Shown in pieces: positions 16,424-48,538 of a stretch of 64,000 nt of DNA. The notes under the pieces are model-generated. The model did not search any database, was not told the origin of the DNA, and saw only the letters and a program-made list of their open reading frames with translations. The translations under genes were made by a program, and so were the position numbers. This DNA comes from Corallochytrium limacisporum Hawaii. Taxonomy: Eukaryota; Protista; Pluriformea. Every line of letters starts with the position of its first letter. The stretch's first letter is position 1. Location: NCBI GenBank assembly GCA_002811645.1, contig PDIP01000004.1, positions 1 through 64,000 of the forward strand, in the 5' to 3' direction.

Positions 16424-17216
16424 GCTGTGTCCATATCAACACATTGGCACCCTGAATTGGCCACCATACTTAGCACGAAGCAATAGATTTTGTCTCCCAT
16501 GTAATGAAGAGCCATTCGAACCCATGAAATACTGTGCACTAATGGCTGTGTACGCCCATTCTATCGACCAGTTCATCTCTCCATCGCTGTAGCAGGAACT
16601 TGTCCCCGTGCCCGAGGTGCCTCTGCAGTGCGGTGTCCCGGGAGCTGTCCCCTCGGTCTGTAACAATCTCCCCCCTCCCCTCTGGCGCGCAGCAATGAAG
16701 TTTTTTTTTTCACGCAATCGTCTCCCGCTCTCCCGAGTTTTTCCCATAGTTTCAGCCCCTCACCGGCGGACTCCGGTTCCCCCTCCCCTCTCCCAACCTT
16801 GCCCAGGGTTTTTTTTTGGGTCTTATCTCGCGGTCCACACTCTTCCCCCGGGGCCCCGGTATCGATGGGCCGCCTCCCAAGGCAAAGGCAAAAGGGGGGG
16901 GGTGGAGGAGGGGGTTTGGTTGGGGTTTATTGAGTTTTTATCAACAGGAAAAGGAAGGTATTATGTGGCAACGGCGCGTAGGAGAGAAAAAGGTTGGAAA
17001 ATTTGGAGATAACGGGAAAAGAAAAAATACAAAAGTCATCGCGCCATCGACGTGGTACGTAAAACGCAGCGGGCGAAAGTGTACCGGGGCACCTACTACG
17101 GTAACACAGAGAGGTATGTAAGAAGAACCGGACGGGCCGGCCCCTTTTCTTCGCGAACCAATTAGGCAGTAGTTGGTGGGCAGCGCTGGAATGATTTGAG
17201 CACAAGAAGGACACAC

Positions 17217-17316
17217 AGAGAGAGAGAGAGAGGGAGAGAGAGAGGGAGAGGGAGAGAGAGGGAGAGAGACAGACACAGAGAGAAAGAGGGAGAGAGGGAG
17301 GCAGGGAGAGAGAGAG
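17217..17316. repeat. (GA)n / purine-rich microsatellite tract
   Basis: about 100 bp of AG/GGAG repeats upstream of the Pil1-like gene. Confidence 0.9.
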
Positions 17317-17792
17317 CGCAATCATCACAAAAGAGCCAGCCATGGACGATCTTTCTCTCTTTTTTTTTTTTTTTTTCTTCGTCGTAGACGAAAAACGCAC
17401 TTCTGGTGCTGGGGGGGGGGGCACAAGCACCGGTTCGGAGGTGGCGGGTCTCTCCAGAGCCGAGCGTATACTAAGAGCGGTCAGGACGCAAAAACACAGA
17501 CACGGGGCCCAAGAGTCAAGAGAGAGAGAGATAGGAGCGATTGGGGAGGGGGACCAAACCATAGTTTCCCTTTTTGATGACGCGAATCTTGTGGGAGATA
17601 GATGGGATGAGCGGAGCCGTTTGCAGAGAATGTATTTGATTGAGACCTTTCTGAACGTATTTCACTGTGCAATTGGTCGCTGTCGACGATATCCTAGCCG
17701 AATAACGAATCTAAAAGACGGACAGATATCTCCATCATCGACTTGTGAAACGACCGTAACTAGCGCAATACGCATAGAATAACTTCGCCGAG

Positions 17793-19025
17793 ATGATGCA
17801 GCAGATCCGCCGCGGTGTTCAGGACGTGTTATCGCACGGCCAGCTCACAAAGGCCATCAGTGAGGAGAAAGGTGTTGTATCCTCCTATAATTCTGCAGCA
17901 AAGGAAAAGGAGGAGGCTTTCAAGTATGTGCAGGCATGGGGAGCCGAAGAAGAGATCGACCTCCGTGATTTCCTCGCCCAGATGGCCAAGCTCAACGCCG
18001 AAGCCGTTGCGGCCCATAGATCCTATGCAGAAAAGTACAATGAGTACCGACAGGGTTGGAAGCGTCTGAAGGAAGAGCAAGATCGGATCGATCAACTACG
18101 TAAGAAGATTCGCGATATGGAGAACCAGTCGCAGAAGAACCGCAAGAAGGGCAAGGGCAACAACCAGCTGGACAATGAGATCATGAAGGCTCAGAACTCT
18201 CTCCGGGAAATGACACAGGGGTTTGAACTGATCAAGCGCAGAACTCTGAAGTCGCACTTCAAGGCTGTCATGGCCGCACAGCAAGAATTTGGTCAGAAGA
18301 TGGCCACCCTTGGTCAATTCGGTGGCTATCTGGCTGATCAAATTCCGGAGAACTTTGATCCCAATAACTATCAAGGCGCTCCAACCACTGCACGTATTGT
18401 TATGGACTGCACGAATGCCATGGCCGACCCGAGCGTCAACGGCGTCGCACCGCCGCCGCCGCCCAATGCGCCCCCTACCCAAGTACCCAACGGTGCTCAC
18501 GGTGCTCCTCCGACTCCCGCAGTGAATGGCCAGGGACCTGTCCATGATATGCCTCCGCCGGCCTACTCAGACTCGCCACCAGGACCAGTCCCCAGCAAGC
18601 CCATGCCACCAAGTGCCTCTCCTCCGCTAGACACCCCTCCAACATCGGCACCTCCCGCTGAACCCTCTGGACCTCCCGCTCAACCATCTGGACATTCGGC
18701 ACCGGGACTGGACACCATGTCCGGTATTCAGATGAAGAACATGTGGTCCAAGGCCGATGAGACGGGCGAGTGGAAAAAGGAAACACGGAGCATGGTCATC
18801 GAATACTGCTCGAGTTTTGCACCAGTGGTCCACTGCGTTGTTGCCGATGAAGACCCGGAAAGGTCGGTGTTTGTGAAGTTCGCGACATATGAGGCTGCCG
18901 GAGTGGCCGCACAAGCTCTACAAGGAAAGAAGTTTAGTGGTAATCAGATCACGGTCATTCCAATGGGAGGAGCCGATTATGACCGCTGGTACCCTGACGC
19001 GGTCGGCAAGACGACGGCATTGTAG
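17793..19025 (+). CDS. eisosome Pil1/Lsp1-like BAR domain + Pro-rich linker + C-terminal UHM (RBM39/MAN1-type RRM)
   Basis: Pil1 pattern EK.V..S...A.E...A.K...WG.EE..D..D, Y..YR...K, E...K.A.....G..L, Y.G.....I..D; C-terminal NMW...E..W..E...VIE.C....V.H..V...VFVKF...A..AL.GKKFSG..IT. Confidence 0.75.
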   Translation: MMQQIRRGVQDVLSHGQLTKAISEEKGVVSSYNSAAKEKEEAFKYVQAWGAEEEIDLRDFLAQMAKLNAEAVAAHRSYAEKYNEYRQGWKRLKEEQDRIDQLRKKIRDMENQSQKNRKKGKGNNQLDNEIMKAQNSLREMTQGFELIKRRTLKSHFKAVMAAQQEFGQKMATLGQFGGYLADQIPENFDPNNYQGAPTTARIVMDCTNAMADPSVNGVAPPPPPNAPPTQVPNGAHGAPPTPAVNGQGPVHDMPPPAYSDSPPGPVPSKPMPPSASPPLDTPPTSAPPAEPSGPPAQPSGHSAPGLDTMSGIQMKNMWSKADETGEWKKETRSMVIEYCSSFAPVVHCVVADEDPERSVFVKFATYEAAGVAAQALQGKKFSGNQITVIPMGGADYDRWYPDAVGKTTAL

Positions 19026-19098
19026 AAAAGCCAACATGATATGCACAGGGAAATATATGTGTCACATGCATGGTAATATATATTCTCTTAAAATACGC

Positions 19099-20106
19099 TC
19101 ACTTCCTTACAATCACACACCATTGGCCCGCCAATGTGCTGCTGAGATCTGTTGTCTGATATGTTTCGGGATCATCGTCTGGATTTGGCTGCCAGGTGCA
19201 CGATGTCAACTGTCTTGAGCTCGCAACAAGGCTCTCTACCGACCATGCACTGGGATGTCGGGACTTGCCTTGCAAACAAATGTACCGGCACAGGCACGAA
19301 CGAGCCTCGTCGTTGCCTGCTTCCTGAGCAAACCTGGCATGGTTCACATGTTCCTTCAAGATCCCGTCCCTAACTTTAGCACACGTCAAGTCATCATTGA
19401 CATCGGCTAGATTAAGCACATGCTGATCAGCATCACCCACAACTTCTTCCGACAGAGGTAGCGCAGCGGCAAACCCCGTAATCACTGCCCAGTGGGCACG
19501 CTTGCCTCCGTGTTGGCACGGCTCCCCGTTGGCATCTGCATCATAAGGCACTAGCACAACACCACCGACCTGCAGTGTGTCCAACACGAGCGCGATAGAT
19601 TGCTCTCCATCCGACACGTCCACAACCCCAACTTGGACGCCGGAGACGCCCTCGGACTCCTGGACTATCTGTTGGAGCACCTTACACAGATTTTCGGCAT
19701 TGAAGAACTCTCCGCGCACAGAAACCTTAGCGGATTTCGCGACTCTAAGTAATCTCTCTGATAATGCCACCAAATCTCTGGGTTGTACCTGGTCTGGAAC
19801 TGCCGAAGAGAGGCCCATAACCGCGGCCACGGGGCCACATGTGGCACCAGCCTGTCGCACGGTGTGCGAGGGATTGATGTAGTACGCACCAGTGACCTTT
19901 TCGATCTCTTCCGTCTCTGGCCAATTGTCCCGACAGTTGCGTGCCAGATTGCGAGCTGCCTCACGCTGGTGTTCCATACAGTGACAGGGCTGGTCACAGC
20001 CTTTGAACTCCGTTGCGTACTGGCCACCAAGCCGCGGTGCCTGCGCGTGCGATTTGGGCACAGGCGGTGGTGGTGCTGGTGGAGGAGGCGGTGGTGGTAC
20101 CATCAT
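19099..20106 (-). CDS. ACTMAP: actin maturation protease (C19orf54/UPF0692)
   Basis: N-terminal polyproline, Q.G..CG.VA catalytic Cys, GE.F, VPYDAD.N.EP....G.RAHWA, QGKSRH. Confidence 0.82.
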   Translation of the reverse strand: MMVPPPPPPPAPPPPVPKSHAQAPRLGGQYATEFKGCDQPCHCMEHQREAARNLARNCRDNWPETEEIEKVTGAYYINPSHTVRQAGATCGPVAAVMGLSSAVPDQVQPRDLVALSERLLRVAKSAKVSVRGEFFNAENLCKVLQQIVQESEGVSGVQVGVVDVSDGEQSIALVLDTLQVGGVVLVPYDADANGEPCQHGGKRAHWAVITGFAAALPLSEEVVGDADQHVLNLADVNDDLTCAKVRDGILKEHVNHARFAQEAGNDEARSCLCRYICLQGKSRHPSAWSVESLVASSRQLTSCTWQPNPDDDPETYQTTDLSSTLAGQWCVIVRK

Positions 20107-22669
20107 TCACCCTGCGTATTCATCGGCACCAAAAGTTCCGGACGATCCCACACACAATGCGCGACTGCACGATTATGTTCTGCGCATACCAACACCCCTT
20201 AATACCCTCGGAACTTCCCTCTAAAGCGTACAAGCCAATCAGATTGACCCCCTTACATGGAAACATAATTATATACGGAGCATTTTATTATTTTAGATAC
20301 TCACCTCCTCGACTGTGCTTGAGAAAGTGAAATATAAATTTTCCGGATGAATATATTGAGTCAATTCATTTCACAACTGTGTCCGGAACCGGTTGGCAAA
20401 AAACCCCTTGCTTGTCGCTACGTGCTCGCCTCCCTCGCGGCCCTACAGTTTTCCACCAGTTTCCCTGCAATTTCCCGGCCCACAACCTCCCCACCCCCGC
20501 ACGCGGACGACAAGCGTTGCCGAGTATTCTGCGGGCGTTGCTGCGACCGTCTTTGACACGAGGAACATACCCTGTCGTTGCTGTCTTCGGTTTTAGAGCA
20601 AATTTTTGACGGAACAAGAGTGTGTGCCAATGCGATGGAAAACATGTGCGACAGGGGGGGCGAGCTAGACGAGAATGTGTGCGAGGAGATTTTCGTTCGA
20701 CGAAGTTTTGGCTTTATTCATAAGTTTTGCACATCGCCATCTGTGATTGGGGATGGTACTGTAAGTCTGAGGATAGACGAGCAGGGGTACACACGTCTCC
20801 TTGCTTTCTATAACACCGTCTGTGTGAGTACACAATGAACTCGTACCGCTCATTTCCCTTAGTGTTGACCTCTGGTTCATTTTAAGGGATTCTCTGATCT
20901 CTTACTGCTCTGACTATGTGCATACATTTCTGGCTGCAGTCTTACAGTACCTGATCTTATTGTCTCACACTAAGCGATGTGACAAAGTTTGGAACTCTAC
21001 GTGCTCACTATTGACGCAATATTACGTCTTTTAGATCCACGCTCCGACTACAACGATATGTTCATACCACAGCGCATCGTGTACAGCACATAGCCGATCC
21101 CTCAGAGTCATGGACTGTGGGCTGTCGGCAACCACCAGAGGTATGGCCGATTGGGGCCACCGAATGCTAAAGGAATGAATTTGTTTGATAACAGTGTGAT
21201 GATGTAACCGCCTTCACCAACCTCCCCCTTTCGATTATCGACGTCTCCATCGACAACCCGTAAGGAGCCATCGAACGCAGAAAAGGGGCGGTGTACGTTG
21301 CCCGACTGTAGTGAACTTTCCGTCGATGATTACATGGAGAAAATATCTTTATGTGGCGACATAGCCACCCCAATGACAGACTGGTTGCTTGTTTGGTAAA
21401 GGCGGAAAGAATACGATGTCTTGGATTCACATCTGTTTAGCTAATGAATTATGAGCGACCACGCGACGACCTTCAAGGATGACCGGTCTGCTGAGGCTTT
21501 GGAGGGCGACTTGGGGCCTGAATAGGCACTTCTATAGTTTGCCTACTCTTCAGGTGTGTCTCCTCTCTCGACGCAGGTGGCGGTTGGTAAAACCCCCCTC
21601 CTTCACCACTGACTCCGGCTCTCGCTTGCAAAATCGCACAGGGCCAGTTGTCAAAGGCATTTCGGTATCTCTAGTAAGTCCTTCAGGGCGCTAGTTTCGT
21701 CCTGTCAAGAATTACAGAAAGGTCTATAGGTACGCAACGTGGACAGTCTGCACATCTGATTAGTAAGTGTACTAGCGGCAACAAGAATTGTCCTGGTTTC
21801 ACCATACAGCGGTCGGTACCTAGTTCATGATAAAAGCATTCATACCGAAAATGGGCCACCGCAATACCTCCCGTGAAAATTTTGCGGGGGTGTGAGCACA
21901 GAACATGTGGGGTGCCGAAACACACTTCATTGTGGTATAATACATGTATATTATTGTCCCGGAAGTGAAATATATCATTTTCATCGCCGTTTATATATGT
22001 CTGTTCTGCCGTATACTAATTGATCCCCCGCAAGAGGCTTCCCAAATAAAGATAAGTGATGCTACTGAAAGAACTTGAAACATTAAACGTGGAATAGTGA
22101 AACCAAAGGTACATCGGCGCGTAGGAAATGTACTGTTGTACCGTAGACGATTGGAGGTGCAAAACGGGTAAACTGATCTGAAAAGCAATGCTGAGTTCAT
22201 GGCGGAGACATGACCTACGCGACCGAGGCGTTCACAAAGACTCAAGAAGGTTCGCAATTTTTTTTACCTTCATTCAGTATGTGCCACACTTCTGCAAAGT
22301 GTGCAAGGGTGGACACCAGCACATCAGACCATACAGCTCCCCAGACGAGTCCGAGTATCCCGTAAGAGAGACAAGGAGGACATTTTGGGCTATGCTGCCA
22401 CACACGCATAAACAAGATATCCAAAACCGGAGTTCTTTACCGGGTGCTGTATAAAGTATTCAGTTCTGGAAAACACATCCTCACGGAAACCCCTCGGGCG
22501 GAGCAAATCTCCGGCGGTGTTTATTGATAGGAGGTCAAGGTCACTGTTGGCCGTTCTGTCTTGGTTTCAATGCTCTACTAATATGCCTGCTTATGCGTGC
22601 TGTGTGCATGCAGCATCCACTGCGCACTGTAGTATCTGTACGACAAGAAGAGCACGGCAACAAGCAGGT

Positions 22670-22920
22670 NNNNNNNNNNNNNNNNNNNNNNNNNNNNNNN
22701 NNNNNNNNNNNNNNNNNNNNNNNNNNNNNNNNNNNNNNNNNNNNNNNNNNNNNNNNNNNNNNNNNNNNNNNNNNNNNNNNNNNNNNNNNNNNNNNNNNNN
22801 NNNNNNNNNNNNNNNNNNNNNNNNNNNNNNNNNNNNNNNNNNNNNNNNNNNNNNNNNNNNNNNNNNNNNNNNNNNNNNNNNNNNNNNNNNNNNNNNNNNN
22901 NNNNNNNNNNNNNNNNNNNN
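22670..22920. other. assembly gap (251 N)
   Basis: run of n. Confidence 0.99.
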
Positions 22921-24767
22921 ACGGCGATCAAGTGATGTTTCACCGGAAACTAAGGACAAGGTCATTGGCCTGCTGAAACAAGGCATATCCGCTGCACGCG
23001 ACGTGGAAAAGACCCCTGATATGTTTGCAAAGAAACTTCCAAACGGGTTGACCGACAAAGTTTGTAAGTTATCCGGCACCGAGCCTAGGACTGTGCGAAA
23101 GCTTTGGAATCAGTACGTGAAGGCGAAGAGTAAGGCACAAGCAAAGGGAGACGATGTGACGACACCAGATGTTTTCCAGCCCAAAAAGCGCACTGGCCGT
23201 CCGAGGAAACAACTGTCCTTGAGTCCGCTCCAAAATGGTGGTGTCAGATACCGGTCATACAGAGAATTGGCGGCTATCATGAGCGAGCAAAGCGGGGTAA
23301 AGGTAAGTGAATCTCTGATCAGGAGAAGGAAACAGTCAGGAGATTTGCAGGTTTGCAAAGTAAGACGCAAAATATATTTGGACAGTGATGCAATGCAGAG
23401 CAGAGTAAAATTCATTCTCGAATTGATCGCCGACGAAGGAAGGTTTCCTCCTTTCGACGACGTCATCTTCATCGACGAGAAGTGGTTCTATCCACACGTT
23501 AAGAACCTGAACATAGCATATGCAGGAAATGAAGAGAATGTGCGAAGAGTCCAACATGTCAATAGGGGCCACAGCGAGAGCATAAAGTCTATGTTTATTG
23601 CTGCTGTTGCAAAACCTAGGACATGGGTCTCGAGCTTCGGTCTTCAGGAGAACGAATTCGATGGAAAGTTGGTTTGTCATCCTTGTGTAGAAGAGACTGT
23701 AGCGAAACGAAAGAGCAAGAACCGTGATCGAGGAGACAAAGTCGTGAAACCTGTGAGTGTGACTGGCAGAACACTACTCGCTTTCTTTGATCAAGTGCTG
23801 TTCCCTTCGGTGGTGCAGAAGTGGCCGACAACGTGGCCTAAGTCGCGCCCGATTTACATCTGGCTTGATAATGCACGACCCCATTGTGCCTTGGAGAAAA
23901 GCTTGAAGACAGAATGGGAACAGGTTCATGGTCGCTGGCTTGAGAATACCTCCTATGACTTTCGGCTGCGCTTCCAGCCGAAACTGAGCCCTGACCTAAA
24001 CATTCTTGATTTGTCTTTGTTCCGCTCTCTGGACAGGGCGCGGCCAAGTCCGAGTCTAGTGAAGATGAACACTATAGAGGAAGTTATGGAGACTGTCTTA
24101 ACTGCATGGAAAGATTGGGATCCTGATTGCCTTGCCAGAGCTTTTAGAACCTTACAAGATGTCATGGTAAAGATCTTGGAGCACAAGGGTGGGAATACGT
24201 TCAAACTACCGCACTCGAGAAAGACACCGTCTGGACACTTGAACTACGGTGAGGCAATTATAGACGACGCACTCATACGTGAGGCTCTGGCATATATGAA
24301 CGGGTTTAATTGTGTGTCAAGAGCGGATCAAGATGACCGACAAGATTCTGACACTGATGAAGATGAGAACGATGACGAATCCACATCGCTTGGATGTATT
24401 CTGGGAGTCCAAGATACGTGTCTCAACTACAACTGTCGGCAAGATCCCCCGGTCTCATACCAAACAACACCAATGAGAGGGTTGCAATGGTTAAACAGAC
24501 TGCTTTAATGATATTGGCAACGTATTTGATCCCTTGGAGAGTTGTTATGACCGTGGTCAAGCACAGGTCTGACAACATCACCCCGCAAACAAGCGGAACA
24601 TCCAGAAACACAGAAACGAAGTGCTCAGTGATTCGAATATTTTAGTTGCCTCATTGATTTCATTATATAGTTAACATTTACATTTGTCTGTTGAATCGAA
24701 TAAATAATCATATAAATCACGATCCGGTATATATTTTCGAACGAAAATTTTGGTTGGATACGGAGTA
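22921..24767 (+). mobile_element. Tc1/mariner (plant/oomycete-type DD39D-related) DNA transposon; left end probably lies in the gap
   Basis: transposase ORF plus candidate right terminus ...GGATACGGAG|TA at 24756-24767 (reverse complement TA|CTCCGT..., resembling Stowaway/mariner ends with a TA target site). Confidence 0.75.
22922..24508 (+). CDS. mariner-like transposase, 5' end in gap
   Basis: AT-hook KRTGRPRK, FIDEKWFY, K.MFIAAVAKPR, A.R.SKNR..G, DNARPH, QP..SPDLNILDL..F.SL, GGN.FKLPH; open from the gap to the stop. Confidence 0.9.
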   Translation, partial: RRSSDVSPETKDKVIGLLKQGISAARDVEKTPDMFAKKLPNGLTDKVCKLSGTEPRTVRKLWNQYVKAKSKAQAKGDDVTTPDVFQPKKRTGRPRKQLSLSPLQNGGVRYRSYRELAAIMSEQSGVKVSESLIRRRKQSGDLQVCKVRRKIYLDSDAMQSRVKFILELIADEGRFPPFDDVIFIDEKWFYPHVKNLNIAYAGNEENVRRVQHVNRGHSESIKSMFIAAVAKPRTWVSSFGLQENEFDGKLVCHPCVEETVAKRKSKNRDRGDKVVKPVSVTGRTLLAFFDQVLFPSVVQKWPTTWPKSRPIYIWLDNARPHCALEKSLKTEWEQVHGRWLENTSYDFRLRFQPKLSPDLNILDLSLFRSLDRARPSPSLVKMNTIEEVMETVLTAWKDWDPDCLARAFRTLQDVMVKILEHKGGNTFKLPHSRKTPSGHLNYGEAIIDDALIREALAYMNGFNCVSRADQDDRQDSDTDEDENDDESTSLGCILGVQDTCLNYNCRQDPPVSYQTTPMRGLQWLNRLL

Positions 24768-25402: not shown

Positions 25403-27055
25403 ATGGTTGCGAGCATGAAGGTCGCCATGGCCGTTTTGATGTCGGCAACGGTCTGCATGGGCCAATTTCCTTTCGACGAGTCCACTGGTGGATTCCAGCC
25501 CGCAGACGGAGATAATCCTGATGATACTCCTGTGTACAAAATGGATAACCGCGTTCTGATCATCAAAGGGTCAAACGCCAGCGCATCAAGGTACCTTCAT
25601 GACCCTACCAGCGAGTCGTACATGTTCCAGTTTCAGTGGTATGGTATTCCATTTGAGTCATATACAGTACCAGGATCTGGGCAAGATTATTTGCAGAATC
25701 CTGAGCCTACTAGATTCCATCATTTGACGTTTGGCAATGATGATGGAGCGGAGAACCCGATTGAAACTTGGTATAAAACCTTTGACTACAAGATTGCAAA
25801 CGGCCTTGAGAACGGAGAGAATTATGGTCGTTACAGCGGTATCTTCATCCTGCCTAATGCAGCCATTAGCCAGGATGACTTGCGTGACATCTTCGCGTAC
25901 GCCGAAAAGTATGGTGCCCGTGTCGCCGGCTGGAGCGGTCAGTTCCCGGGGTCAATCAAGGGCATAACCTCAGTGCCGCCATTGACAGCTGACGAAGCAC
26001 GAAACATGCAGTTCACCCAGAAAGGCAGAGAATTTACGGACACGATCATAGATCCAAACTACAAATTCAATCTCGCTGAGATTGAAGTCGTGTATAACGA
26101 AGTTGTTACCCTTGACGAAGACCCTGGTAAGACCGAGGCCCTTGTACAGGATCCTGAGTCTGGCAAGACCATCCTCAGCTACCATCAAGTGCGTCCCGGT
26201 GTCGAACTGATGGCAGTCTGGTACACTCTAACCTATTATCAGCAGGACGCGTGGCCCCTGTTCTTGCCTATTATTGAGTTTCTTTCTCGTCGCCATTGGA
26301 CTGGCGCCCGCCGCATTCACCTGAACAACGTCATGACCAACTGGTACATGTTCCCCGAGGTGCGCAGCCCTCTTTGTGTGAAACTAGCGAGTTTCTGCTC
26401 TAACGGGAGTGGTCGATTCGAGACTGATGTTGCAAGATTCGAAAAACTTTGGGCCTTCCCAGTCCCGAACTATGACTGTTCGCGCCCGCAGAGCTTCTGT
26501 GATTCCAGCCAAGTAGACATCACGTACGACGATACGAATGCGATGTTCGCGTGCGAGCCCGTGACCACTTACGAGTTCAACGGTTCATACGATTTGATCG
26601 GCATGCAGCTTTCTTCTACGGAGGGCTGCGAGAACTTCTTATTCACCACTACGTCCAAGGCAAACGATCTTAAGCTGACATTCGACGATGGAACGGAAGT
26701 AAGCAAATTCGCGGAGTACGGCCCGGACATCAACTACATGATCCCGATGACCGCTGGCGAGAATCACATTTCGTTTGACCAAACGCGGTACAACTACAAA
26801 CTTGACAAGGTCGTAAATGTGACAAGCCCGCCTCCAGACGGCGGAGACGACGGTGACGGAGGAGACGACGGTGACGGAGGAGATGAAGACAATGGAGGGA
26901 GCGATGGAGACAACGGCAATGAAAACGACAATGGAGGCAGTTCGAGGGACAATGGTGACTCGGGACAACTTGATGGAACATCTTCGGGCGGCGATGCTCT
27001 CAGTGTTGGTGCAATCGTAGGTATTGTTATTGCTGGCGTGGCTGTGGTTGCATAA
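25403..27055 (+). CDS. Agd3-derived (CBM87-like) surface protein, paralog 1; stop within the TM, in-frame tail continues to 27184
   Basis: signal peptide, RVLII, WYGIPF, G.YSGI, IFAY..KYGARV, G.ELM, FLSR..W.G.RRI.LN; C-terminal C.P...Y...C..EYG.D; G/D-rich stalk; TAA at 27053-27055 where the paralog has Leu. Confidence 0.75.
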   Translation: MVASMKVAMAVLMSATVCMGQFPFDESTGGFQPADGDNPDDTPVYKMDNRVLIIKGSNASASRYLHDPTSESYMFQFQWYGIPFESYTVPGSGQDYLQNPEPTRFHHLTFGNDDGAENPIETWYKTFDYKIANGLENGENYGRYSGIFILPNAAISQDDLRDIFAYAEKYGARVAGWSGQFPGSIKGITSVPPLTADEARNMQFTQKGREFTDTIIDPNYKFNLAEIEVVYNEVVTLDEDPGKTEALVQDPESGKTILSYHQVRPGVELMAVWYTLTYYQQDAWPLFLPIIEFLSRRHWTGARRIHLNNVMTNWYMFPEVRSPLCVKLASFCSNGSGRFETDVARFEKLWAFPVPNYDCSRPQSFCDSSQVDITYDDTNAMFACEPVTTYEFNGSYDLIGMQLSSTEGCENFLFTTTSKANDLKLTFDDGTEVSKFAEYGPDINYMIPMTAGENHISFDQTRYNYKLDKVVNVTSPPPDGGDDGDGGDDGDGGDEDNGGSDGDNGNENDNGGSSRDNGDSGQLDGTSSGGDALSVGAIVGIVIAGVAVVA

Positions 27056-28335: not shown

Positions 28336-30069
28336 ATGGTTGCGTGCATGAAGATCGCTCTGGCTGTGGTGATGTCGGCAACATTCACCATGGGCCAATT
28401 TCCTTTCGATGAATCCACCGGTGGGTTCGACGGTGACTTCAAGATGGACAATCGCGTTCTTATCATCAAGGGTTCGAACATCGGCGGAGAAAGGTACCTC
28501 CACGATCCTACCAGCGAGTCGTATATCTTCCAATTGCAATGGTACGGCATTCCTTTTGAGTCGTACACGAAAGGAGACGGGTACAATTATTTGCAGAAGC
28601 CCGAACCCACTGAAACTCACCATATAACCTTCGGCAATGATGACGGTGATGAGAACCCGATCAGAACTTGGTACAAGGACACGAGTTTCACCCTTGACAC
28701 AGGTCTGGAAAACGAAGAAGGGCATGGTCGGTACAGTGGCATTATTATCCTGCTTGATGCTGAGCTCAGCAACGAAGACTTCAGCACCATCTTCGCTTAC
28801 TGCGAAAAGTATTCTGCTCGCATTGTCGCTTGGAACTATGGACTACCAAACCTTTTGGAGGGCATCACTCGCGCAGATGAGACTACTGATCCCTTAACTG
28901 ATGCCGAGGCAGGAAATATGCAGTTCACCGACAAGGGCAAACTATTCACTGACTCTTTCGATCATGAGTACACATTCAATCTCGCTGAGATTGAGGTCGT
29001 ATATAACGAAGTGGTCTACATTGAAGAGAATCCTGGAAAGACCGAAGCCCTTGTACAGGATCCTGAGTCTGGCAAGACCATTCTCAGCTACCACCTTGTA
29101 CGACCCGGTGTCGAATTAATGGGCGTCTGGTATACTCTAAACTACTTCCAGCAGGACTCCTGGCCCTTGTTCTTCCCCATCATTGAGTTTATTTCTCGTC
29201 GCCATTGGACTGGCGCCCGCCGTATTCACCTGAACAACGTCATGACCAACTGGTACATGTTCCCGGAGGTGCGCAGCCCACTGTGTGAGAAACTATCATC
29301 ATTCTGCAACGATGAGGGTGATGGTCGGTTTGAATTGGCAGTCTGGGAATATCCCGACCACTGGAACTTCCCAGCACCGAACTATGACTGTTCGCGCCCC
29401 CAGGCGTTCTGTGACTCGAGCGCAGAGGGCGTGGATATCACGTTCAATGACACTGTGGCGATGTTCGCATGCGAGCCTCTGACCACATACGAGTTCAACG
29501 GTTCATACGATTTGATTGGCATGGAGTTTACATCTACTCAGGGCTGTGAAAACTTCCTGTACACCACGACCGCTCTGGCCAACAATCTTAAGCTGAAATT
29601 CGACGACGGAACGGAAGTAAGCAAGTGGACAGAATACGGTGTGGACAACAACTACGTGATTCCCATGACCACTGGCCAGAACCATATTAACTTTGATGAT
29701 ACGCTATACAACTACCGCACCGACAGCATCACCGTCGAAGGCGAGGACCCAGAGAACGGAGGTGGTGGTGATGGATCTGACGATGGTGGATCTGGAGATG
29801 ATGGATCTGGCGGCAATGGAGGAGACAGTGGTGGAAGTGAAGGAGACGATGGCACATCCTCTAGCAGCAGCGGTGGCCTCAGCATCGGCGCGATTGTTGG
29901 TATTGCCGTCGCTGGTGTTGTCGTAGTTGCTCTTGTCGTCGCATGCTTCCTGTGCAGGCGCAGGCGTAGCAATGGCAAAGACGCTCGTAACACTCGCCGA
30001 CACAGCGGCAAACGGAACAGCAACAGTAGAAGCGGCAGTGACTACTTCTGCCGCGAGGTTGATGTGTAG
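28336..30069 (+). CDS. Agd3-derived (CBM87-like) type I membrane protein, paralog 2 (intact)
   Basis: same domains as paralog 1, then a Ser-Gly/Asp stalk, TM GAIVGIAVAGVVVVALVVACFLC, RRRR, and a tail ending -EVDV. Confidence 0.8.
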   Translation: MVACMKIALAVVMSATFTMGQFPFDESTGGFDGDFKMDNRVLIIKGSNIGGERYLHDPTSESYIFQLQWYGIPFESYTKGDGYNYLQKPEPTETHHITFGNDDGDENPIRTWYKDTSFTLDTGLENEEGHGRYSGIIILLDAELSNEDFSTIFAYCEKYSARIVAWNYGLPNLLEGITRADETTDPLTDAEAGNMQFTDKGKLFTDSFDHEYTFNLAEIEVVYNEVVYIEENPGKTEALVQDPESGKTILSYHLVRPGVELMGVWYTLNYFQQDSWPLFFPIIEFISRRHWTGARRIHLNNVMTNWYMFPEVRSPLCEKLSSFCNDEGDGRFELAVWEYPDHWNFPAPNYDCSRPQAFCDSSAEGVDITFNDTVAMFACEPLTTYEFNGSYDLIGMEFTSTQGCENFLYTTTALANNLKLKFDDGTEVSKWTEYGVDNNYVIPMTTGQNHINFDDTLYNYRTDSITVEGEDPENGGGGDGSDDGGSGDDGSGGNGGDSGGSEGDDGTSSSSSGGLSIGAIVGIAVAGVVVVALVVACFLCRRRRSNGKDARNTRRHSGKRNSNSRSGSDYFCREVDV

Positions 30070-40683: not shown

Positions 40684-43600
40684 ATGTCTTGCCAAGGAAA
40701 TACCAGCGATGTCGATGCTGTCCCGTGTACCATTGATACGGGAAGTGATTCAGCCAGGTCTAGTATTGGTTCAATGGAAAAGACTTGCCAATTCAACCAC
40801 AAAACAGGATCTGGATCTCATGCCGCGTGCAATTCACCCCCACGCACTGTCCCTCGAGACACCTTCAACCAGCGGAAGAGGCATGCAGGGGATCCACCAT
40901 CCGATGAACGGCAAAAGAAACCTTGCCCACACTCGGAAAGCGCCGGACCTCCGATTGGAAGACAGTCAGGTTCCCTGCATTCAGTTTGGACCCTCCGCAG
41001 GGGGGCGCGCCGGATGAGTGTTGGCCAGCGTCGCAGTGTATCAGAAAGTGCCAAGCCACAGGTGAGTCCCAAGGCAGCAGCAAGAATGCATGGCAAGAGT
41101 ACTCTGAGAATAAGGACTGAGGCCAGTCAAGATACGCTATCACATATCCAGGCAAGCCCGCCACCAGCATCCAGGCCCACTACACCTCCAAAATTGCAGC
41201 TAAGATTACCGGCCCGACCCAGAATACGTGCAGATCCCTCGCTACGAAAGCCCTTAAAGCAGCAGGTTCTAGAACAGGACCCGGAAGCAGCAGCAACGCC
41301 GAGACAGTCAACGGCATTGACTGAGATTGTCAATCAAGAAGAGCCTAACCACGAGTCAGACACCGATGCGGCTTTTGAGCAACGCTTCGCGACTGATGTG
41401 GTTGATCAAGACGTGCTGGATCATTTCACACAAAGTAAGGCGAAGAAAGAACAAAACTCTGTCCAAAGTCAGGAACAGGCGAAAGAATTGCTAACTGAAG
41501 AATCTGCTATCTATCTCGGACGCACCCGCAGGGCTGCAGCAGCACTCAACTCCATTGAAAGGGAAGCTGTCGAACCCAAAGGAACAGATAAGCAGCCCAA
41601 TCTGAGCACGCGAACGACTCTGTACGTTCCTCGCGATCTCGGCTGGGAATCAGCTGTACAGGCACTTGGAAAAGAGTTTGCAGCAACGTTAATGGGTCGA
41701 CGGAAGGGTTGGATTGATAGGTATGATGCCATACACAAGAATGAAAATGGGAAATACAGAGTGGACAAGACCATGAAACAATGGATCAAGGACAAGGAGG
41801 AGCGCGAAATCAAAGCCAAGGAAAAGCAATTGGAAAAGATGATTGATCATGTGGACGACGGAAAGGAAAGTGTTACGATAGAGGATTCAGGACATGAAAA
41901 CGATGAACTTTCCCATGAACAATTGGAGACTGTGTTTGATATCGTAAAACCTTTGTTGGAGCCCGAAGGATTTAACGGAGACGTGGTGCTCATGGTGTCT
42001 GAGGAAGATTACTCAATGCATCTCGCAACCGGCGAAGACCTGGAACCTGTGCTCGTAACGGAGACTCTGGTGGTCCTGGCGTGTGTGGCATGGCGAGACC
42101 TCGACTCATACACAAGATGTATGAACCCGTATTGCGCTGTTCCCCTGACCATTGAGGAATACTTCTGCGGAGATTGCAATGACAGAGACCAGATTGGAGT
42201 ACATTTATGTCTCAAGTGCTTCCAGCATCTGCTCACTGGTATTAATGAAACCCTCAATCATCGACACCCCCGCGAGCACTTCCGAAGACGAAGGATTCCA
42301 CCAACTTGGCTGGAGTTCACAGGCTCGCTCTTCAAGGAGCGATCTCTGCTTTTTGCATGGGATCGAAAAAGTGGTAAAAGGTGTCTGAGACGCTTGGGAT
42401 ACCTTAACCCAGGCCATCTTAGCTCCAATCGCATCGGTGGGGTACTTGTTCGGGACAAGTTCATGCTACAGAATCACCGTGACACTTCCATGACCCTCAG
42501 CAGTGCTCCTCAATGTGTATTCTGCGGTCGAGATGACTTCGATGAGGCTGTCCTTGGGGAGATTGGAAAGCTATCGAAAGAACTTGTTTATATTAGTGAT
42601 TGCGAGGGCAGTCGTCATGCTCCCAAGAGGGGATCAGGCTACTACCCATGCCATCTCACTTGTGTAAAGTTCGCGGATCTAGTCCACTACAATCCCCAAA
42701 GCAACACATGGTACAACATTGATACGCTCTACCACCTGAGCAAACAAAACAAGTGTTCAGTATGCCAGCACCCAGGTGCAACATTAGGCTGCATGACTTC
42801 CAGATGCCGTGATGTTGTTCATGTACCGTGTGCCGACATCAACGTTAAACTTCTGGAAGAAGGAATCTTGTATTGGTGCAAGAGATGTCGTCGGGAATCC
42901 TACAATCAGCAGACCGAGACTTTCAAGTGTGATGGATGTTCTGTGCCCATCAAACTAGCCCGATGGACCTGCAAACAATGTGAAACGAAGTCCTATCCGT
43001 GGAAGTCATTCGATCTATGCCGTGCTTGTTTCTGGGGCAATCGAGGGTCACACCATCACGACCGTTGCGAATTCAAATCTGTCCGCGTTTACAGCGAGGG
43101 ATATCAAAGGAAACTTGCAGCACCGAGGCCCCGGTTTGGGACCAACAGTACACCAAAGTGCATCTACTGCCTGGCTGAGATCAGTGATGGTGTGAGATGC
43201 GGCAGGACGGGCGTTGGGGGTGGCCCAATCTGCATTTCATGTGCCCTCGTATGCTTTGAGCATAGTGAGCTCGGCTGTCCTAACGGCGCAAAGATTAGCG
43301 CCGAAGAGTATGACTACAATTCATACCTTACCCGGTATAGCCTTTCCACAATGACGAACAACGATACACGGCGAAATCACTTGCCCAAGGTGTTACCGTC
43401 ATACGGTCCACACCCCAAGGACTACTACAGTATTCATCTCCAGCATTCCTATATGGATATCCCCGGGAGGATTCGTCGGTGGGCAACACATGATTACGGG
43501 GATTATCTGGGAACTTGGATTCCCCAGATCCCTCGCTGGGCGATCCTGCGATACACGGCAGAAGGGGATCGGGTCTTGAGCAATTTTGCTGGCCGGGGGA

Positions 43601-45111
43601 CTGATTTGATTGAGTGTTTCCTACTGTCGCGCAAGTCCGTCGGTGTCGACATCAATCCTTTGGCTGTCGGTCTGAGCCATAGAAATTTGGCCTTTGCCGT
43701 CCCGGTGAAGCTGCAAAGACATGTCAGTAGTCGATATAGGCCTTTGGTTATTCAAGACGATGCTGCAGCCCTCAGGGCATCAATCTTCAAGCCCGACATG
43801 TTTGATCTCGTTCTGAGCCACCCACCTTACTCTAACTGCATTGTGTACTCGACACAAATTGCTGAGGATCTCAGTAATCAGGGTGACCACGAGAGCTTCT
43901 TCGAGGCTTATCTTCAGGTGGCAAGAAGCACTCACCGCGTCGTCAAACCAGACGGTCATGTTTTGCTTGGGATTGGAGACAATAGGATGGTCACGAGGAT
44001 CGTACCTGTTGGATTCAAAACCATAATGTGCTATCTCCGAGAAGGCTTTGTGATCGAAGAACTTATCGTGAAGCGCCAAAAGTATTGCTCGGGGACAATG
44101 GATATCGGCGCACTTCTCGCAGCTATGCATGGCTTCTTGATCCTAACGCATGAATATCTTGCGGTTTTCCGTAGGCGCAAAAGCACAGATGTCATGATAC
44201 CCTCTTTGCCACTGTGGACGGAAGTGGACGCAGGGCGAAAGCAGAATATTTCATGTTTTCGCATCCCACGCCTGTACGGTCCATCAAATACCGCGGTAAT
44301 GGGAACTACGTGGTTACTTTGCAGCTGCCGGGACATGGAGCTTCAGGCCGTTACAAAGCTCGTGCTGCGTTACGCTTTTGAAGGAGATATTTGCGGGATC
44401 CTTGGGAGCGCTGGCCGGCCAGATTGGGTTGAAACAACAAAGAAACGGTCAAAGAAGTGTTTCTGTGAGCTCGAATCGCGCAAACAAAGAAAGGACTTGC
44501 AAGAATTGCAGCATGCTGAGGAGAGTGAATATGAACGTCAACGTTTGGAGAACATAAAGAGTAATGAAGAAGCCCTGGCTAGGATGGGATTGAAGCAACC
44601 CTCTACAGATGTATTGCAGGCATCAGTGGATCGCGTTGTTTCGGCACGGTTGAAAACCAGGTTTACCGTCTGCTCGGAAGCTGTGATCGATATTATGATC
44701 ATCTTCTCCACATTGGCACAGAGCAAAACGAACGAAGGGCTCAGTTGGCATGACTGCCATATGATAACTGCGGACACAGTAGCACGGACAAAGAGTGCTC
44801 TGCACAGTCTCAGACCTGGTTGCAGTCGACTGGCTGTTGCATGTTCAGACTTTCGAACCAGTCAAGGAATCGTCTACCCTGGCGCAATGTATCTGGAAAA
44901 ACACTTGCATGAGCCAGTAAGGAACGCACAGCTCGGTCTCAAGGAGATCATCATCATGACTCGTCATGATGCAGCCTGCAATGGCTGGTCAAAGAAACGA
45001 CATCCATTCAAGAGGAGTCGACCATTTCGCTGGACCATGGAACCACAGATGTCCAACGCGGAACATCTCCCGATCGTTCACTGGTACTTTCTTCTCTATG
45101 AACCCTTGTAA
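40684..45111 (+). CDS. multidomain amino-DNA methyltransferase (N6A/N4C): ZZ, extended PHD, ZZ, GATA-like Zn finger, MTase (HPPY), KRI-like helix, degenerate second MTase
   Basis: Cys/His fingers (FCGDC..CLKCF..H.H; C..C..H..C..CSVC...GATLGC....C....H.PC..WC..C; FKCDGC..WTC..C..FDLC..CF); RWATH..GDY.G.W.PQIPR..ILRY...GD.VL.NFAGRGT, GVDINP, DL.LSHPPY, RV.KP.G....IGD.R. Confidence 0.85.
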   Translation: MSCQGNTSDVDAVPCTIDTGSDSARSSIGSMEKTCQFNHKTGSGSHAACNSPPRTVPRDTFNQRKRHAGDPPSDERQKKPCPHSESAGPPIGRQSGSLHSVWTLRRGARRMSVGQRRSVSESAKPQVSPKAAARMHGKSTLRIRTEASQDTLSHIQASPPPASRPTTPPKLQLRLPARPRIRADPSLRKPLKQQVLEQDPEAAATPRQSTALTEIVNQEEPNHESDTDAAFEQRFATDVVDQDVLDHFTQSKAKKEQNSVQSQEQAKELLTEESAIYLGRTRRAAAALNSIEREAVEPKGTDKQPNLSTRTTLYVPRDLGWESAVQALGKEFAATLMGRRKGWIDRYDAIHKNENGKYRVDKTMKQWIKDKEEREIKAKEKQLEKMIDHVDDGKESVTIEDSGHENDELSHEQLETVFDIVKPLLEPEGFNGDVVLMVSEEDYSMHLATGEDLEPVLVTETLVVLACVAWRDLDSYTRCMNPYCAVPLTIEEYFCGDCNDRDQIGVHLCLKCFQHLLTGINETLNHRHPREHFRRRRIPPTWLEFTGSLFKERSLLFAWDRKSGKRCLRRLGYLNPGHLSSNRIGGVLVRDKFMLQNHRDTSMTLSSAPQCVFCGRDDFDEAVLGEIGKLSKELVYISDCEGSRHAPKRGSGYYPCHLTCVKFADLVHYNPQSNTWYNIDTLYHLSKQNKCSVCQHPGATLGCMTSRCRDVVHVPCADINVKLLEEGILYWCKRCRRESYNQQTETFKCDGCSVPIKLARWTCKQCETKSYPWKSFDLCRACFWGNRGSHHHDRCEFKSVRVYSEGYQRKLAAPRPRFGTNSTPKCIYCLAEISDGVRCGRTGVGGGPICISCALVCFEHSELGCPNGAKISAEEYDYNSYLTRYSLSTMTNNDTRRNHLPKVLPSYGPHPKDYYSIHLQHSYMDIPGRIRRWATHDYGDYLGTWIPQIPRWAILRYTAEGDRVLSNFAGRGTDLIECFLLSRKSVGVDINPLAVGLSHRNLAFAVPVKLQRHVSSRYRPLVIQDDAAALRASIFKPDMFDLVLSHPPYSNCIVYSTQIAEDLSNQGDHESFFEAYLQVARSTHRVVKPDGHVLLGIGDNRMVTRIVPVGFKTIMCYLREGFVIEELIVKRQKYCSGTMDIGALLAAMHGFLILTHEYLAVFRRRKSTDVMIPSLPLWTEVDAGRKQNISCFRIPRLYGPSNTAVMGTTWLLCSCRDMELQAVTKLVLRYAFEGDICGILGSAGRPDWVETTKKRSKKCFCELESRKQRKDLQELQHAEESEYERQRLENIKSNEEALARMGLKQPSTDVLQASVDRVVSARLKTRFTVCSEAVIDIMIIFSTLAQSKTNEGLSWHDCHMITADTVARTKSALHSLRPGCSRLAVACSDFRTSQGIVYPGAMYLEKHLHEPVRNAQLGLKEIIIMTRHDAACNGWSKKRHPFKRSRPFRWTMEPQMSNAEHLPIVHWYFLLYEPL

Positions 45112-47449: not shown

Positions 47450-48538
47450 TCACCGCCTCAGCGACTTTTGCAAAAGAACCACAGCGAATGCTGCAGCAAT
47501 AGGCGCTACGAAAACTGCAATCATGAATCGGTGATTTTGTTGCTCGAGCTCGCTTACCTTCTTCTCAAGACTCCCGATGCGAGCTTCCATTGCTTTCACG
47601 CTCTGATCATGTTTTGTCAGAGCCTTGGTGACCTCATAAGCCACAACATCTTCTACATCATCCTCAGCGTACTCAGGTGCTTCCTCAAACTCTGCTGCGT
47701 TGACTGGCGATTGTGCACGGCCAAGTTCAGACGCCGTTGTTAAGTGGGACTTCCCAATCCTTTCTAGCGCTGGCAGAAGATCAGCCTTGTTCTTTTCTGG
47801 GACCTTCTCCATCATTTGAAGGAAACCCTCAACATAGCGCAGCTTGGCCTCCTCTGCAGGAATGTCGCCCAAAGCGTTCCACGCCTCCCATTTCGCCCGA
47901 GCAATCACATTGAAGATACCGGGCTGAGGAACGTTACAGGGGCCATTGGTAGCCTGCTTGTACAGTGAGTAGAAGTTGAGCTTGTCAGTATTCGACGGTT
48001 GGACAGGTCCATTGGATGGCAAGCCTTGAACAGTTTCCACAGCGAGTGTGAACCGCTCTTCCAAGGTAATGGTTACCATTGTAGTGGTCGCAGAGGTTTG
48101 TTTCTTCCCCTGCGACGGTGCCTTCTTTTGAGCAGCTTCCTTTTGCAAATGGTAAGGTGCCTTAGGGGGATCAACTTTGGCCATGACCTTATCCAATCTT
48201 TCGCGGTGCTCTTGGGGGACCAGGCGTGACATTGCAATGAACGTCTCGATATATTGTTGCATGGCCTCTACCTTGGACATATCACCTAGTCCGTTCCATG
48301 CCTCCCACTTGGCCTTGGCAATCACGTCCCAGAAGTTTGGCTTCGGTGCGTTACAGGGACCGACGGTGGCTTGCTTGTAAAGTGAATAAAAATTCAATTT
48401 ATCTGCATTAGTCGGCTGGATAGGACCGTCTTGTGGCAGGTCCTGAATGGCCTGCACAGCAGCATAAAACCGATCACTGAGTGTATCAGACATGCCCTTA
48501 GACTCCGCCAGAATGTAGGATTCGTTTACATCCGCCAT
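47450..48538 (-). CDS. tail-anchored protein with two acyl-CoA-binding domains (ACBD4/5-like)
   Basis: two repeats of RF..AV...Q.LP..GP.QP.N.DKL.FYSLYKQAT.GPCN...P......AKWEAW; FFAT-like EFEEAPE; coiled coil; C-terminal TM followed by KSLRR. Confidence 0.85.
   Translation of the reverse strand: MADVNESYILAESKGMSDTLSDRFYAAVQAIQDLPQDGPIQPTNADKLNFYSLYKQATVGPCNAPKPNFWDVIAKAKWEAWNGLGDMSKVEAMQQYIETFIAMSRLVPQEHRERLDKVMAKVDPPKAPYHLQKEAAQKKAPSQGKKQTSATTTMVTITLEERFTLAVETVQGLPSNGPVQPSNTDKLNFYSLYKQATNGPCNVPQPGIFNVIARAKWEAWNALGDIPAEEAKLRYVEGFLQMMEKVPEKNKADLLPALERIGKSHLTTASELGRAQSPVNAAEFEEAPEYAEDDVEDVVAYEVTKALTKHDQSVKAMEARIGSLEKKVSELEQQNHRFMIAVFVAPIAAAFAVVLLQKSLRR

What the first reader, a model, noticed from the sequence alone, without database searches (positions are those of the whole stretch)
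17793..19025. Eisosome Pil1-type BAR domain fused to a splicing-factor-type UHM domain
The first roughly 210 aa match Pil1/Lsp1, an eisosome scaffold best known in fungi. After a Pro-rich linker (PPxY-like PPPAY, PxxP) there is an RRM closely resembling the RBM39/MAN1 UHM, with the RxF loop as KKF. It is one uninterrupted ORF, so this is not a gene-model artefact. A membrane-furrow scaffold with a ULM- or RNA-binding module could tether splicing factors or RNPs at the plasma membrane. I know of no description of this fusion.
Basis: partly seen in the sequence, partly recalled or inferred. Interest (0 to 1): 0.72.

Follow-up and report, generated by a model that had tools for sequence, protein, structure and literature searches.

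The report
Eisosome scaffold with borrowed splicing domain
In what is likely a single-celled relative of animals, one unbroken gene joins a relative of the yeast membrane-furrow protein Pil1 to a domain from the splicing-factor RBM39 family whose usual peptide-gripping residues have changed, so it is likely a membrane scaffold with a repurposed docking site rather than a tether for splicing factors.

Summary
The fusion is real. ORF 17793-19025 (410 aa) has a Pil1/Lsp1 BAR domain (Pfam 2e-14), a proline-rich linker and an RBM39/MAN1-type UHM fold. Contigs of two probable RNA runs span it without a joint. The host is likely an intron-poor unicellular holozoan. The BAR groups, with moderate support, with a Capsaspora Pil1-like protein. 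It keeps the PI(4,5)P2-binding residues and is predicted to dimerise. None of the other 149 listed homologues has this architecture. The UHM keeps its fold but has lost the Glu-Arg bridge, the aromatic X and the acidic helix: 1 of 5 pocket residues against 4-5 in all 46 RBM39-type rows. It also lacks the RNA-binding aromatics. Best reading: a membrane scaffold with a UHM co-opted for another protein partner, as in MAN1. The scan had already noted holozoan Pil1-like genes on other DNA, but not this fusion. New variant, one lineage only; interest 0.5.

The parts
17793..19025 (+). Single-exon gene for the 410-aa Pil1-BAR / Pro-rich linker / UHM protein (P0001)
   Evidence: spanned without a joint by contigs of X1 and X2
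17793..17834 (+). Predicted N-terminal amphipathic helix (aa 1-14) with Arg6-Arg7, matching the FRR helix of a canonical Pil1. Yeast Pil1 residues about 1-37 have no counterpart.
   Evidence: hydrophobic moment 0.70-0.79 against a 95th percentile of 0.64 over the BAR windows; Arg at position 6 in 70 of 96 homologues; helix 2-14 in the model at low confidence
17841..18428 (+). Pil1/Lsp1-family BAR domain (aa 17-212). Lipid-pocket equivalents K26 (K66), R86 (R126), K90 (K130) and K93 (R133) are kept; R70 is Ser30.
   Evidence: homodimer predicted
18429..18710 (+). Disordered Pro-rich linker (aa 213-306, 36% Pro, no Trp, so no MAN1-like internal ULM); length varies by 3 aa in run X2
18555..18566 (+). 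PPAY (PPxY, candidate WW-domain ligand), aa 255-258
   Evidence: PPxY in 24 of 80 homologue tails against 13.2 expected, 12% chance in this linker
18711..19022 (+). RBM39/MAN1-type UHM fold (aa 307-410) with C-terminal helix
   Evidence: pLDDT 88.5; RBM39 TM 0.89-0.90, E 1.5e-9
18771..18812 (+). UHM helix A (aa 327-340), no longer acidic; Met334 and Tyr338 stand at the family's Asp and Glu
18927..18935 (+). KKF in place of the RXF motif (aa 379-381); only the Phe is kept
17766..19245 (+). Extent of the X1 contig (probable transcript); its 3' end overlaps the convergent ACTMAP-like gene

Best explanation
The gene encodes a Pil1-family BAR protein that is predicted to dimerise and likely coats PI(4,5)P2-rich plasma membrane as yeast Pil1 does, carrying on a flexible proline-rich arm an RBM39-family UHM that likely no longer binds splicing-factor ULM peptides or RNA and instead likely docks some other protein. 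Shown: the architecture, its continuity in two runs, the kept lipid-pocket residues, the kept UHM fold and the changed pocket residues. Predicted: the BAR homodimer. Inferred: (1) the BAR was inherited vertically from an opisthokont ancestor; (2) the last domain of RBM39, or of MAN1, was shuffled onto its tail in this lineage only; (3) dimers bind PI(4,5)P2 through R86/K90/K93 and insert the N-terminal helix, bending the membrane into furrows or patches; (4) each dimer displays two UHMs and two PPxY/PxxP arms to the cytosol, so a lattice would be a multivalent docking surface; (5) the UHM keeps the hydrophobic walls of the Trp pocket (M314, M317, V335, L376, F381, I386) and E323, so it would bind a non-canonical hydrophobic peptide, as MAN1's UHM does without the Glu-Arg bridge. 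The partner is not identified.
For: Domains. Continuity. Lipid residues: PMC11324527 passages name R126/K130/R133 for PI(4,5)P2 and R43/K66/R70 for PS; all but R70 have basic equivalents here. Dimer: score 0.86, best of 3 controls 0.01, runs agree in at least 98% of contacts, pLDDT 88. The mark was reached by 21 of 30 solved homodimers and 0 of 23 single chains (eukaryotes 17 of 29 and 0 of 30); Lsp1/Pil1 dimers are solved, so the pass may be from memory. Vertical descent: groups with Capsaspora CAOG_01508 and two unnamed JGI proteins at 94/85, outside the starred chytrid clade (97/96); a window+Capsaspora clade is not rejected, p-AU 0.197. UHM source: 43 of 50 UHM-side hits carry the RBM39linker family and 3 carry MAN1's MSC; 19 of 20 four-sequence RBM39 profiles score the query 63.8-73.8 bits (lowest 63.3) against 60.7 for the four-sequence MAN1 profile. 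Pocket loss. MAN1 precedent and pocket residues: PMC6294489 passages.
Against: No localisation or binding data exist. The yeast lattice contacts (N-terminal residues 1-8, Y155/Y158 at the tips) and sterol-binding residues such as F33 have no clear counterpart, so furrow lattices are not assured. Pil1-family members such as Ssp1/Meu14 act on other membranes (PMC12470953 passages). The fusion is known from one species only, so no conservation shows that the UHM is under selection: 0 of X2's 6 substitutions fall in it, about 1.5 expected by length, which is not significant. The UHM is a long branch (1.61 against a median of 0.45). The tree node with Capsaspora is not starred and involves long branches; the best pairwise identities are to chytrids (33-34% against 26% for Capsaspora). 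The UHM model was folded with an RBM39-family alignment, so its likeness to RBM39 is partly built in.
Confidence: 0.55

Rival explanations
1. One reading: the UHM still binds canonical ULM peptides, so the BAR scaffold parks splicing factors (SF1, SF3B1, U2AF2) at the plasma membrane.
For: F381 and the hydrophobic pocket walls are kept. Lys occurs at the X position in U2AF65 (PMC5113200 passages). MAN1 binds a Trp peptide without the Glu-Arg bridge. Yeast eisosomes do sequester the RNA-decay enzyme Xrn1 (PMC4374687 abstract).
Against: Two of the four consensus UHM features (RXF motif, acidic helix with its Glu) are not met. It keeps 1 of 5 pocket residues against 4 or 5 in all 46 RBM39-type rows; helix A has net charge 0. 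MAN1's ULM binds in cis, and this linker has no Trp. From general knowledge, canonical ULM partners are nuclear.
Confidence: 0.12
2. The UHM is a passenger: a piece of RBM39 captured by a Pil1-like gene, tolerated on a floppy tail and decaying, while the BAR does the work.
For: Single-lineage occurrence. Long branch and loss of residues that are invariant in the family, including RNP1 Gly to Arg357 (Gly in 46 of 46). Pil1 tails are highly variable and carry assorted add-ons: SH3 in 5 of 97 scanned, plus single bromodomain and chitin-synthase-like cases.
Against: At about 30-36% identity to its relatives the frame is still open, and core and pocket-wall residues are conserved while the surface ULM residues changed. 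That pattern fits altered rather than lost constraint. The UHM is identical in X1, X2 and the window.
Confidence: 0.17
3. The C-terminal domain has reverted to RNA binding and anchors mRNPs at the cortex.
For: RRM fold and Pfam RRM_1 above cut-off; Phe360 at RNP1 position 5; a new Arg357 in RNP1.
Against: RNP2 position 2 is Gln and RNP1 position 3 is Ser, both non-aromatic. pI 5.0. The C-terminal helix typical of UHMs is present; in U2AF65 it masks RNP1.
Confidence: 0.06
4. The BAR works on a membrane other than plasma-membrane furrows (vesicles, cleavage or spore-forming membranes), like Ssp1/Meu14; the UHM is still an adaptor. This is compatible with the best explanation's reading of the UHM.
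For: It lacks the yeast N-terminal lattice segment; Ssp1 precedent; no eisosome partner (Sur7, Nce102, Seg1) could be looked for because no genome is held.
Against: The PI(4,5)P2 triad and the amphipathic helix are intact.
Confidence: 0.2
5. Assembly or gene-model artefact joining two genes.
For: One probable merge of this kind may exist elsewhere: P0136, with RRMs N-terminal to a Pil1 domain.
Against: A single ORF with no intron needed; identical in X1 and in frame in X2 across the junction, from two samples and two studies. GC3 is the same in both domains, 0.62.
Confidence: 0.02

Closest known systems
Pil1/Lsp1 of Saccharomyces cerevisiae (Pfam PF13805; PDB 3PLT, 8QB7, 8QB8)
   Same: Three-helix BAR of the same family, predicted homodimer, basic residues at R43/R44, K66, R126, K130, R133, amphipathic N-terminal helix, disordered tail.
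   Different: About 20-23% identity; no counterpart of residues about 1-37 (lattice contact 1); R70 is Ser; the tail is Pro-rich and ends in a folded UHM; host is likely a holozoan.
Chytrid Pil1-domain proteins and Capsaspora owczarzaki CAOG_01508 (P0128)
   Same: Short N-terminus that starts at the RR helix; closest relatives by score (chytrids, up to 34%) and by tree (Capsaspora).
   Different: None of 96 tested carries a C-terminal UHM; Capsaspora's protein is 260 aa with almost no tail.
RBM39/CAPER-alpha UHM (PDB 4OZ1, 4RU2)
   Same: Closest sequence and fold (TM 0.89-0.90), NM-W..W..C pattern, C-terminal helix, C-terminal position in the protein.
   Different: No RS domain, RRM1/2 or RBM39 linker; E453 is Tyr, R494 is Lys, W495 is Lys; helix A neutral.
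MAN1/LEMD3 UHM (PDB 5ZOJ, 5ZOK)
   Same: An RBM39-like UHM attached to a membrane-associated protein, lacking the Glu-Arg bridge and used for non-spliceosomal partners (SMADs).
   Different: MAN1 is an integral inner-nuclear-membrane protein with an internal ULM (W765) and keeps W855, the SMAD contact. Here there is no transmembrane or MSC domain, no Trp in the linker, and Lys at the W855 position.

Membership tests
Pil1/Lsp1 BAR family (PF13805) | Pfam Pil1 match above the curated cut-off, better than any other BAR or coiled-coil family | tested here: met
   54.2 bits against cut-off 27; other families below cut-off; a profile of homologues hits only Pil1/Lsp1 in the PDB, E about 1e-43
Pil1/Lsp1 BAR family (PF13805) | BAR homodimer | tested here: met
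   Predicted only: 0.86 against best control 0.01; may be from memory of solved Lsp1/Pil1
Pil1/Lsp1 BAR family (PF13805) | PI(4,5)P2/PS pocket R126, K130, R133, R43, K66, R70 | tested here: met
   R86, K90, K93, R6/R7, K26 are basic; R70 is Ser30, a variable position in homologues
Eisosome (yeast-type furrow lattice) | Lattice contacts: N-terminal residues 1-8, helix-3 residues 171-186, Y155/Y158 | tested here: inconclusive
   N-terminal contact absent; tips are basic with no clear Tyr pair; chytrid homologues share the short N-terminus
Eisosome (yeast-type furrow lattice) | Stable plasma-membrane furrows and partner proteins (Sur7, Nce102, Seg1) | not testable with these tools
   No genome held; needs microscopy
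UHM (canonical, ULM-binding) | RRM-like fold with degenerate RNP motifs and C-terminal helix | tested here: met
UHM (canonical, ULM-binding) | Low isoelectric point | tested here: met
   pI 5.0
UHM (canonical, ULM-binding) | RXF motif | tested here: not met
   KKF; Arg in 46 of 46 RBM39-type rows
UHM (canonical, ULM-binding) | Acidic helix A with the Glu that bridges to the RXF Arg | tested here: not met
   Tyr338 (Glu in 45 of 46), Met334 (Asp/Glu in 43 of 46), net charge 0
UHM (canonical, ULM-binding) | Binds a ULM peptide | not tested
   No host ULM protein was available; needs ITC or pull-down
MAN1/LEMD3 | LEM, transmembrane and MSC domains, internal ULM before the UHM | tested here: not met
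   No such Pfam match; no Trp in the linker
Canonical RNA-binding RRM | Aromatic residues at RNP2-2, RNP1-3 and RNP1-5 | tested here: not met
   Gln313, Ser358, Phe360: 1 of 3

The most novel reading that the evidence does not exclude
A unicellular relative of animals builds eisosome-type membrane furrows whose core BAR protein carries its own UHM. The lattice captures a Trp-peptide-bearing nuclear or RNA-processing factor and releases it when membrane tension flattens the furrow. That would be a hard-wired link from plasma-membrane mechanics to gene expression, and a second recruitment of an RBM39-type UHM to a membrane protein besides MAN1.
Probability: 0.15. Interest if true: 0.8.

Novelty: new variant of a known kind. 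Interest (0 to 1): 0.5.

Why it matters
Papers I read treat Pil1/Lsp1 as fungal (PMC3128537). A holozoan member with an intact lipid pocket, grouping with Capsaspora's, suggests the eisosome scaffold predates the animal-fungal split and makes that testable in a unicellular relative of animals. The appended UHM is a natural experiment in how a spliceosomal protein-binding domain is rewired for a membrane job, parallel to MAN1. The limits: it is seen in one lineage, the partner is unknown, and the splicing link is probably lost.

Tried and rejected
No genome is held for the window, so the host's own RBM39, MAN1, Pil1 paralogues and eisosome partners could not be checked. Word-index homologue searches were nearly blind: 2 proteins with the single query and 2 with the 27-row alignment; the unindexed search carried the work. 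It listed 150 of 267 hits, so 117 weaker ones were not seen. A scan of JGI metagenome contigs found no relative (139 pattern matches, none confirmed). ESM Atlas gave leads only: 0.75 for the whole protein, 0.88 for the UHM. The single-sequence fold was poor (pLDDT 52.8); Foldseek still ranked Lsp1/Pil1 first to sixth, at E 2e-3 to 8e-3, above the 0.001 line. The 102-row BAR tree finished only as a quick tree and left the protein unresolved; the 30-row careful tree used 30 of those 102 rows: all 18 with a named source other than near-duplicates, the window protein, and 11 unnamed. The UHM tree (quick) puts the domain in a 13-row group with the 4 MAN1-type and 8 RBM39-type rows and cannot choose between them. 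Run X3 (marine metatranscriptome, 0.05 of words) covers only 175 bases of the linker and is not used as evidence. Intron-lessness of the wider window rests on ORF lengths and Pfam coverage, not on laid reads. Gene transfer from chytrids was considered because they are the top hits; the tree does not nest the protein among them, but long branches keep it open. P0136 (RRMs then Pil1, 1293 aa) was judged a different, possibly merged, model: opposite order, and its N-terminal part looks SART3/Prp24-like by my recall. Lee et al. 2015 (PMC4588622) was not held. The bioRxiv atonosome preprint mentions ichthyosporeans but not their Pil1 (passages). No supplements were read; supplementary domain tables of holozoan genome papers could list this architecture.

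Full report
Observation. The window has one ORF at 17793-19025 (+) for 410 aa. Pfam gives Pil1 at aa 17-212 (E 2e-14) and RRM_1 at aa 334-386 (E 8.3e-6), both above cut-off. The best PDB sequence hits are Lsp1 and Pil1 for the first half and the UHMs of RBM39 and MAN1 for the last 100 aa. A profile of 27 BAR relatives hits only Pil1/Lsp1 in the PDB (4 of 4 matches, E about 1e-43). The linker is 36% Pro. The same protein is a EukProt gene model.

Continuity. Two runs of one organism (two samples, two studies; RNA by the tool's guess) hold the stretch. X1 has one 1480-base contig over 17766-19245 with no difference. X2 has one contig over 17719-20108 with six substitutions and a 9-base insertion. 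No joints were seen, and neither run covers the intergenic stretches 16616-17693 or 20158-20600, as RNA would behave. The X2 contig also runs into the convergent neighbour, so it alone shows no single transcript; the X1 contig is nearly confined to this gene. The differences are K81T, M204T, T207M, Q297E, two silent changes and three extra linker residues; none falls in the UHM.

Host. Genes in the window appear as long single ORFs, up to about 1,820 aa. The tyrosyl-tRNA synthetase has a C-terminal tRNA_bind domain, and the named animal proteins dominate its 120 listed hits at about 55-66% identity; no fungal name is among them. This points to a unicellular holozoan with few or no introns. PMC5560861 (passages) gives 0.0 introns per CDS kbp for Corallochytrium and 0.7 for Chromosphaera, so a Corallochytrium-like host is my inference, not a tool result.

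Relatives. An unindexed search of 1.84 billion representatives gave 267 hits at E up to 0.001 and listed 150. All 149 others were scanned with Pfam (97, 52): 99 match through the BAR and 50 through the UHM. None has a Pil1 domain followed by a UHM. An RBM39-UHM profile run over 96 full-length BAR homologues found only P0136, whose RRMs lie before its Pil1 domain. Nine of the ten top BAR hits looked up are named, all chytrid-type fungi. A second look-up of ten found Capsaspora CAOG_01508 among them, with Pfam Pil1 at 8.7e-24. In a careful 30-row tree the protein joins Capsaspora and two unnamed JGI proteins (94/85, not starred), outside a starred chytrid clade (97/96); a window+Capsaspora clade is not rejected (p-AU 0.197). 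Vertical descent is thus favoured over transfer from chytrids but not proven. Earlier notes of this scan report Pil1-like genes in choanoflagellates and invertebrates; I verified only the Capsaspora member.

The BAR looks functional. PMC11324527 (passages) assigns PI(4,5)P2 to R126/K130/R133 and PS to R43/K66/R70. The equivalents are R86, K90, K93, R6/R7, K26 and S30. In 96 homologues R86 is Arg in 89, K90 is Lys in 87 and K93 is Arg/Lys in 82. The first 14 residues are strongly amphipathic. Two copies of aa 1-215 fold as a dimer with score 0.86 against a best control of 0.01, at least 98% agreement of contacts and pLDDT 88. The mark was reached by 21 of 30 solved homodimers and 0 of 23 single chains (eukaryotes 17 of 29 and 0 of 30), and the pass may reflect memory of the solved Lsp1/Pil1 dimers. 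Against a yeast-type lattice: the N-terminal contact (residues 1-8) is absent and no Tyr pair is evident at the tips.

The UHM is folded but rewired. A model from a 22-row alignment has pLDDT 88.5, the RRM topology and a C-terminal helix. It matches RBM39 (TM 0.89-0.90, E 1.5e-9) and then MAN1 (TM 0.83), partly by construction. PMC5113200 (passages) defines UHMs by degenerate RNPs, RXF, an acidic helix with a bridging Glu, and low pI. PMC6294489 (passages) names RBM39 E453, R494, W495 and F496. Here these are Y338, K379, K380 and F381, with M334 at the helix-A Asp. Among 46 RBM39-type rows the positions are Glu 45, Arg 46, aromatic 45, Phe 43 and Asp/Glu 43; 38 keep all five and 8 keep four, while the window keeps one. 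Helix A is neutral against -1 to -7. The four MAN1-type rows also lack the bridge, yet human MAN1 holds its own W765 in a pocket of I788, M791, A809, I810, K813, L851, S854, F856 and V861. The window has M314, M317, M334, V335, Y338, L376, K379, F381 and I386 there, and keeps E323 (MAN1 E797). So a hydrophobic pocket persists while the electrostatic code for spliceosomal ULMs and the second stacking site are gone. RNA binding is unlikely (Gln313, Ser358, pI 5.0). RBM39 is the likelier donor by profile score, but the tree cannot separate it from MAN1.

Linker. PPAY at 255-258 fits a WW-ligand motif (motif meaning from general knowledge). PPxY occurs in 24 of 80 homologue tails against 13.2 expected from shuffles, the rows are not independent, and the chance in this linker is 0.12. 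It is a weak lead.

Mechanism. Most likely a PI(4,5)P2-binding BAR scaffold that displays proline-rich arms and a repurposed UHM to the cytosol as a multivalent docking surface (0.55). Rivals: a different membrane (0.2, overlapping), a passenger domain (0.17), canonical ULM tethering (0.12), RNA binding (0.06), artefact (0.02). Yeast eisosomes sequester Xrn1 (PMC4374687, abstract only), which keeps an RNA-regulation link plausible but is no evidence here.

Novelty. Full-text searches found no paper with Capsaspora and Pil1 (0 papers). One paper held eisosome and ichthyosporea, and was unrelated in the passages read. Three held three of Pil1, eisosome, RRM, UHM, choanoflagellate and Corallochytrium, none with UHM or a holozoan name (listing). 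Searches listed none that names both a holozoan and Pil1 or eisosomes (25 of 280, 30 of 551, 4 of 4 and 40 of 60 listed). PMC3128537 (passages) describes Pil1/Lsp1 as restricted to Dikarya. Subscription papers and supplements were not seen. Verdict: a new variant of a known kind, a Pil1-family member with a UHM-derived domain that fails two canonical UHM tests; interest 0.5.

Noticed in passing
window 19099-20106 (-): ACTMAP-like actin maturation protease (PF21646, E 1.7e-24) with an N-terminal polyproline run, convergent with the Pil1-UHM gene; transcript contigs overlap at the 3' ends.
   Followed up: partly
window 40684-45111 (+): 1475-aa protein joining PHD-like zinc fingers to an N6/N4 DNA methyltransferase domain (PF01555, E 6.7e-11), unusual for a eukaryote.
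   Followed up: no
window 25403-27055 and 28336-30069 (+): Tandem paralogues of about 550-580 aa with a hydrophobic N-terminus resembling a signal peptide and no Pfam match at 1e-4.
   Followed up: no
window 22583-24508 (+): Tc1/mariner-like transposase (PF01498, below cut-off) next to a 251-base N gap at 22670-22920.
   Followed up: no
window 62254-63867 (+): Tyrosyl-tRNA synthetase with the animal-type C-terminal tRNA_bind (EMAP-II-like) domain in a likely unicellular host.
   Followed up: partly
window 47450-48538 (-) and 49440-51377 (+): A protein with two ACBP domains, and a peptidase S49 (SppA-like) protein.
   Followed up: no
P0128 (Capsaspora CAOG_01508): Unannotated Pil1-domain protein that keeps basic residues at all of R6, R7, K26, R86, K90 and K93.
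   Followed up: partly
P0066, P0076 (unnamed JGI proteins): Divergent Pil1-like BARs that fall below the Pfam Pil1 threshold and group with Capsaspora and the window protein.
   Followed up: no
P0022, P0037, P0048, P0092, P0134; P0136; P0015: Other Pil1 architectures: Pil1+SH3 in five proteins, RRMs+Pil1 in one (possible merged model), and a tandem Pil1-Pil1 in Gonapodya.
   Followed up: no
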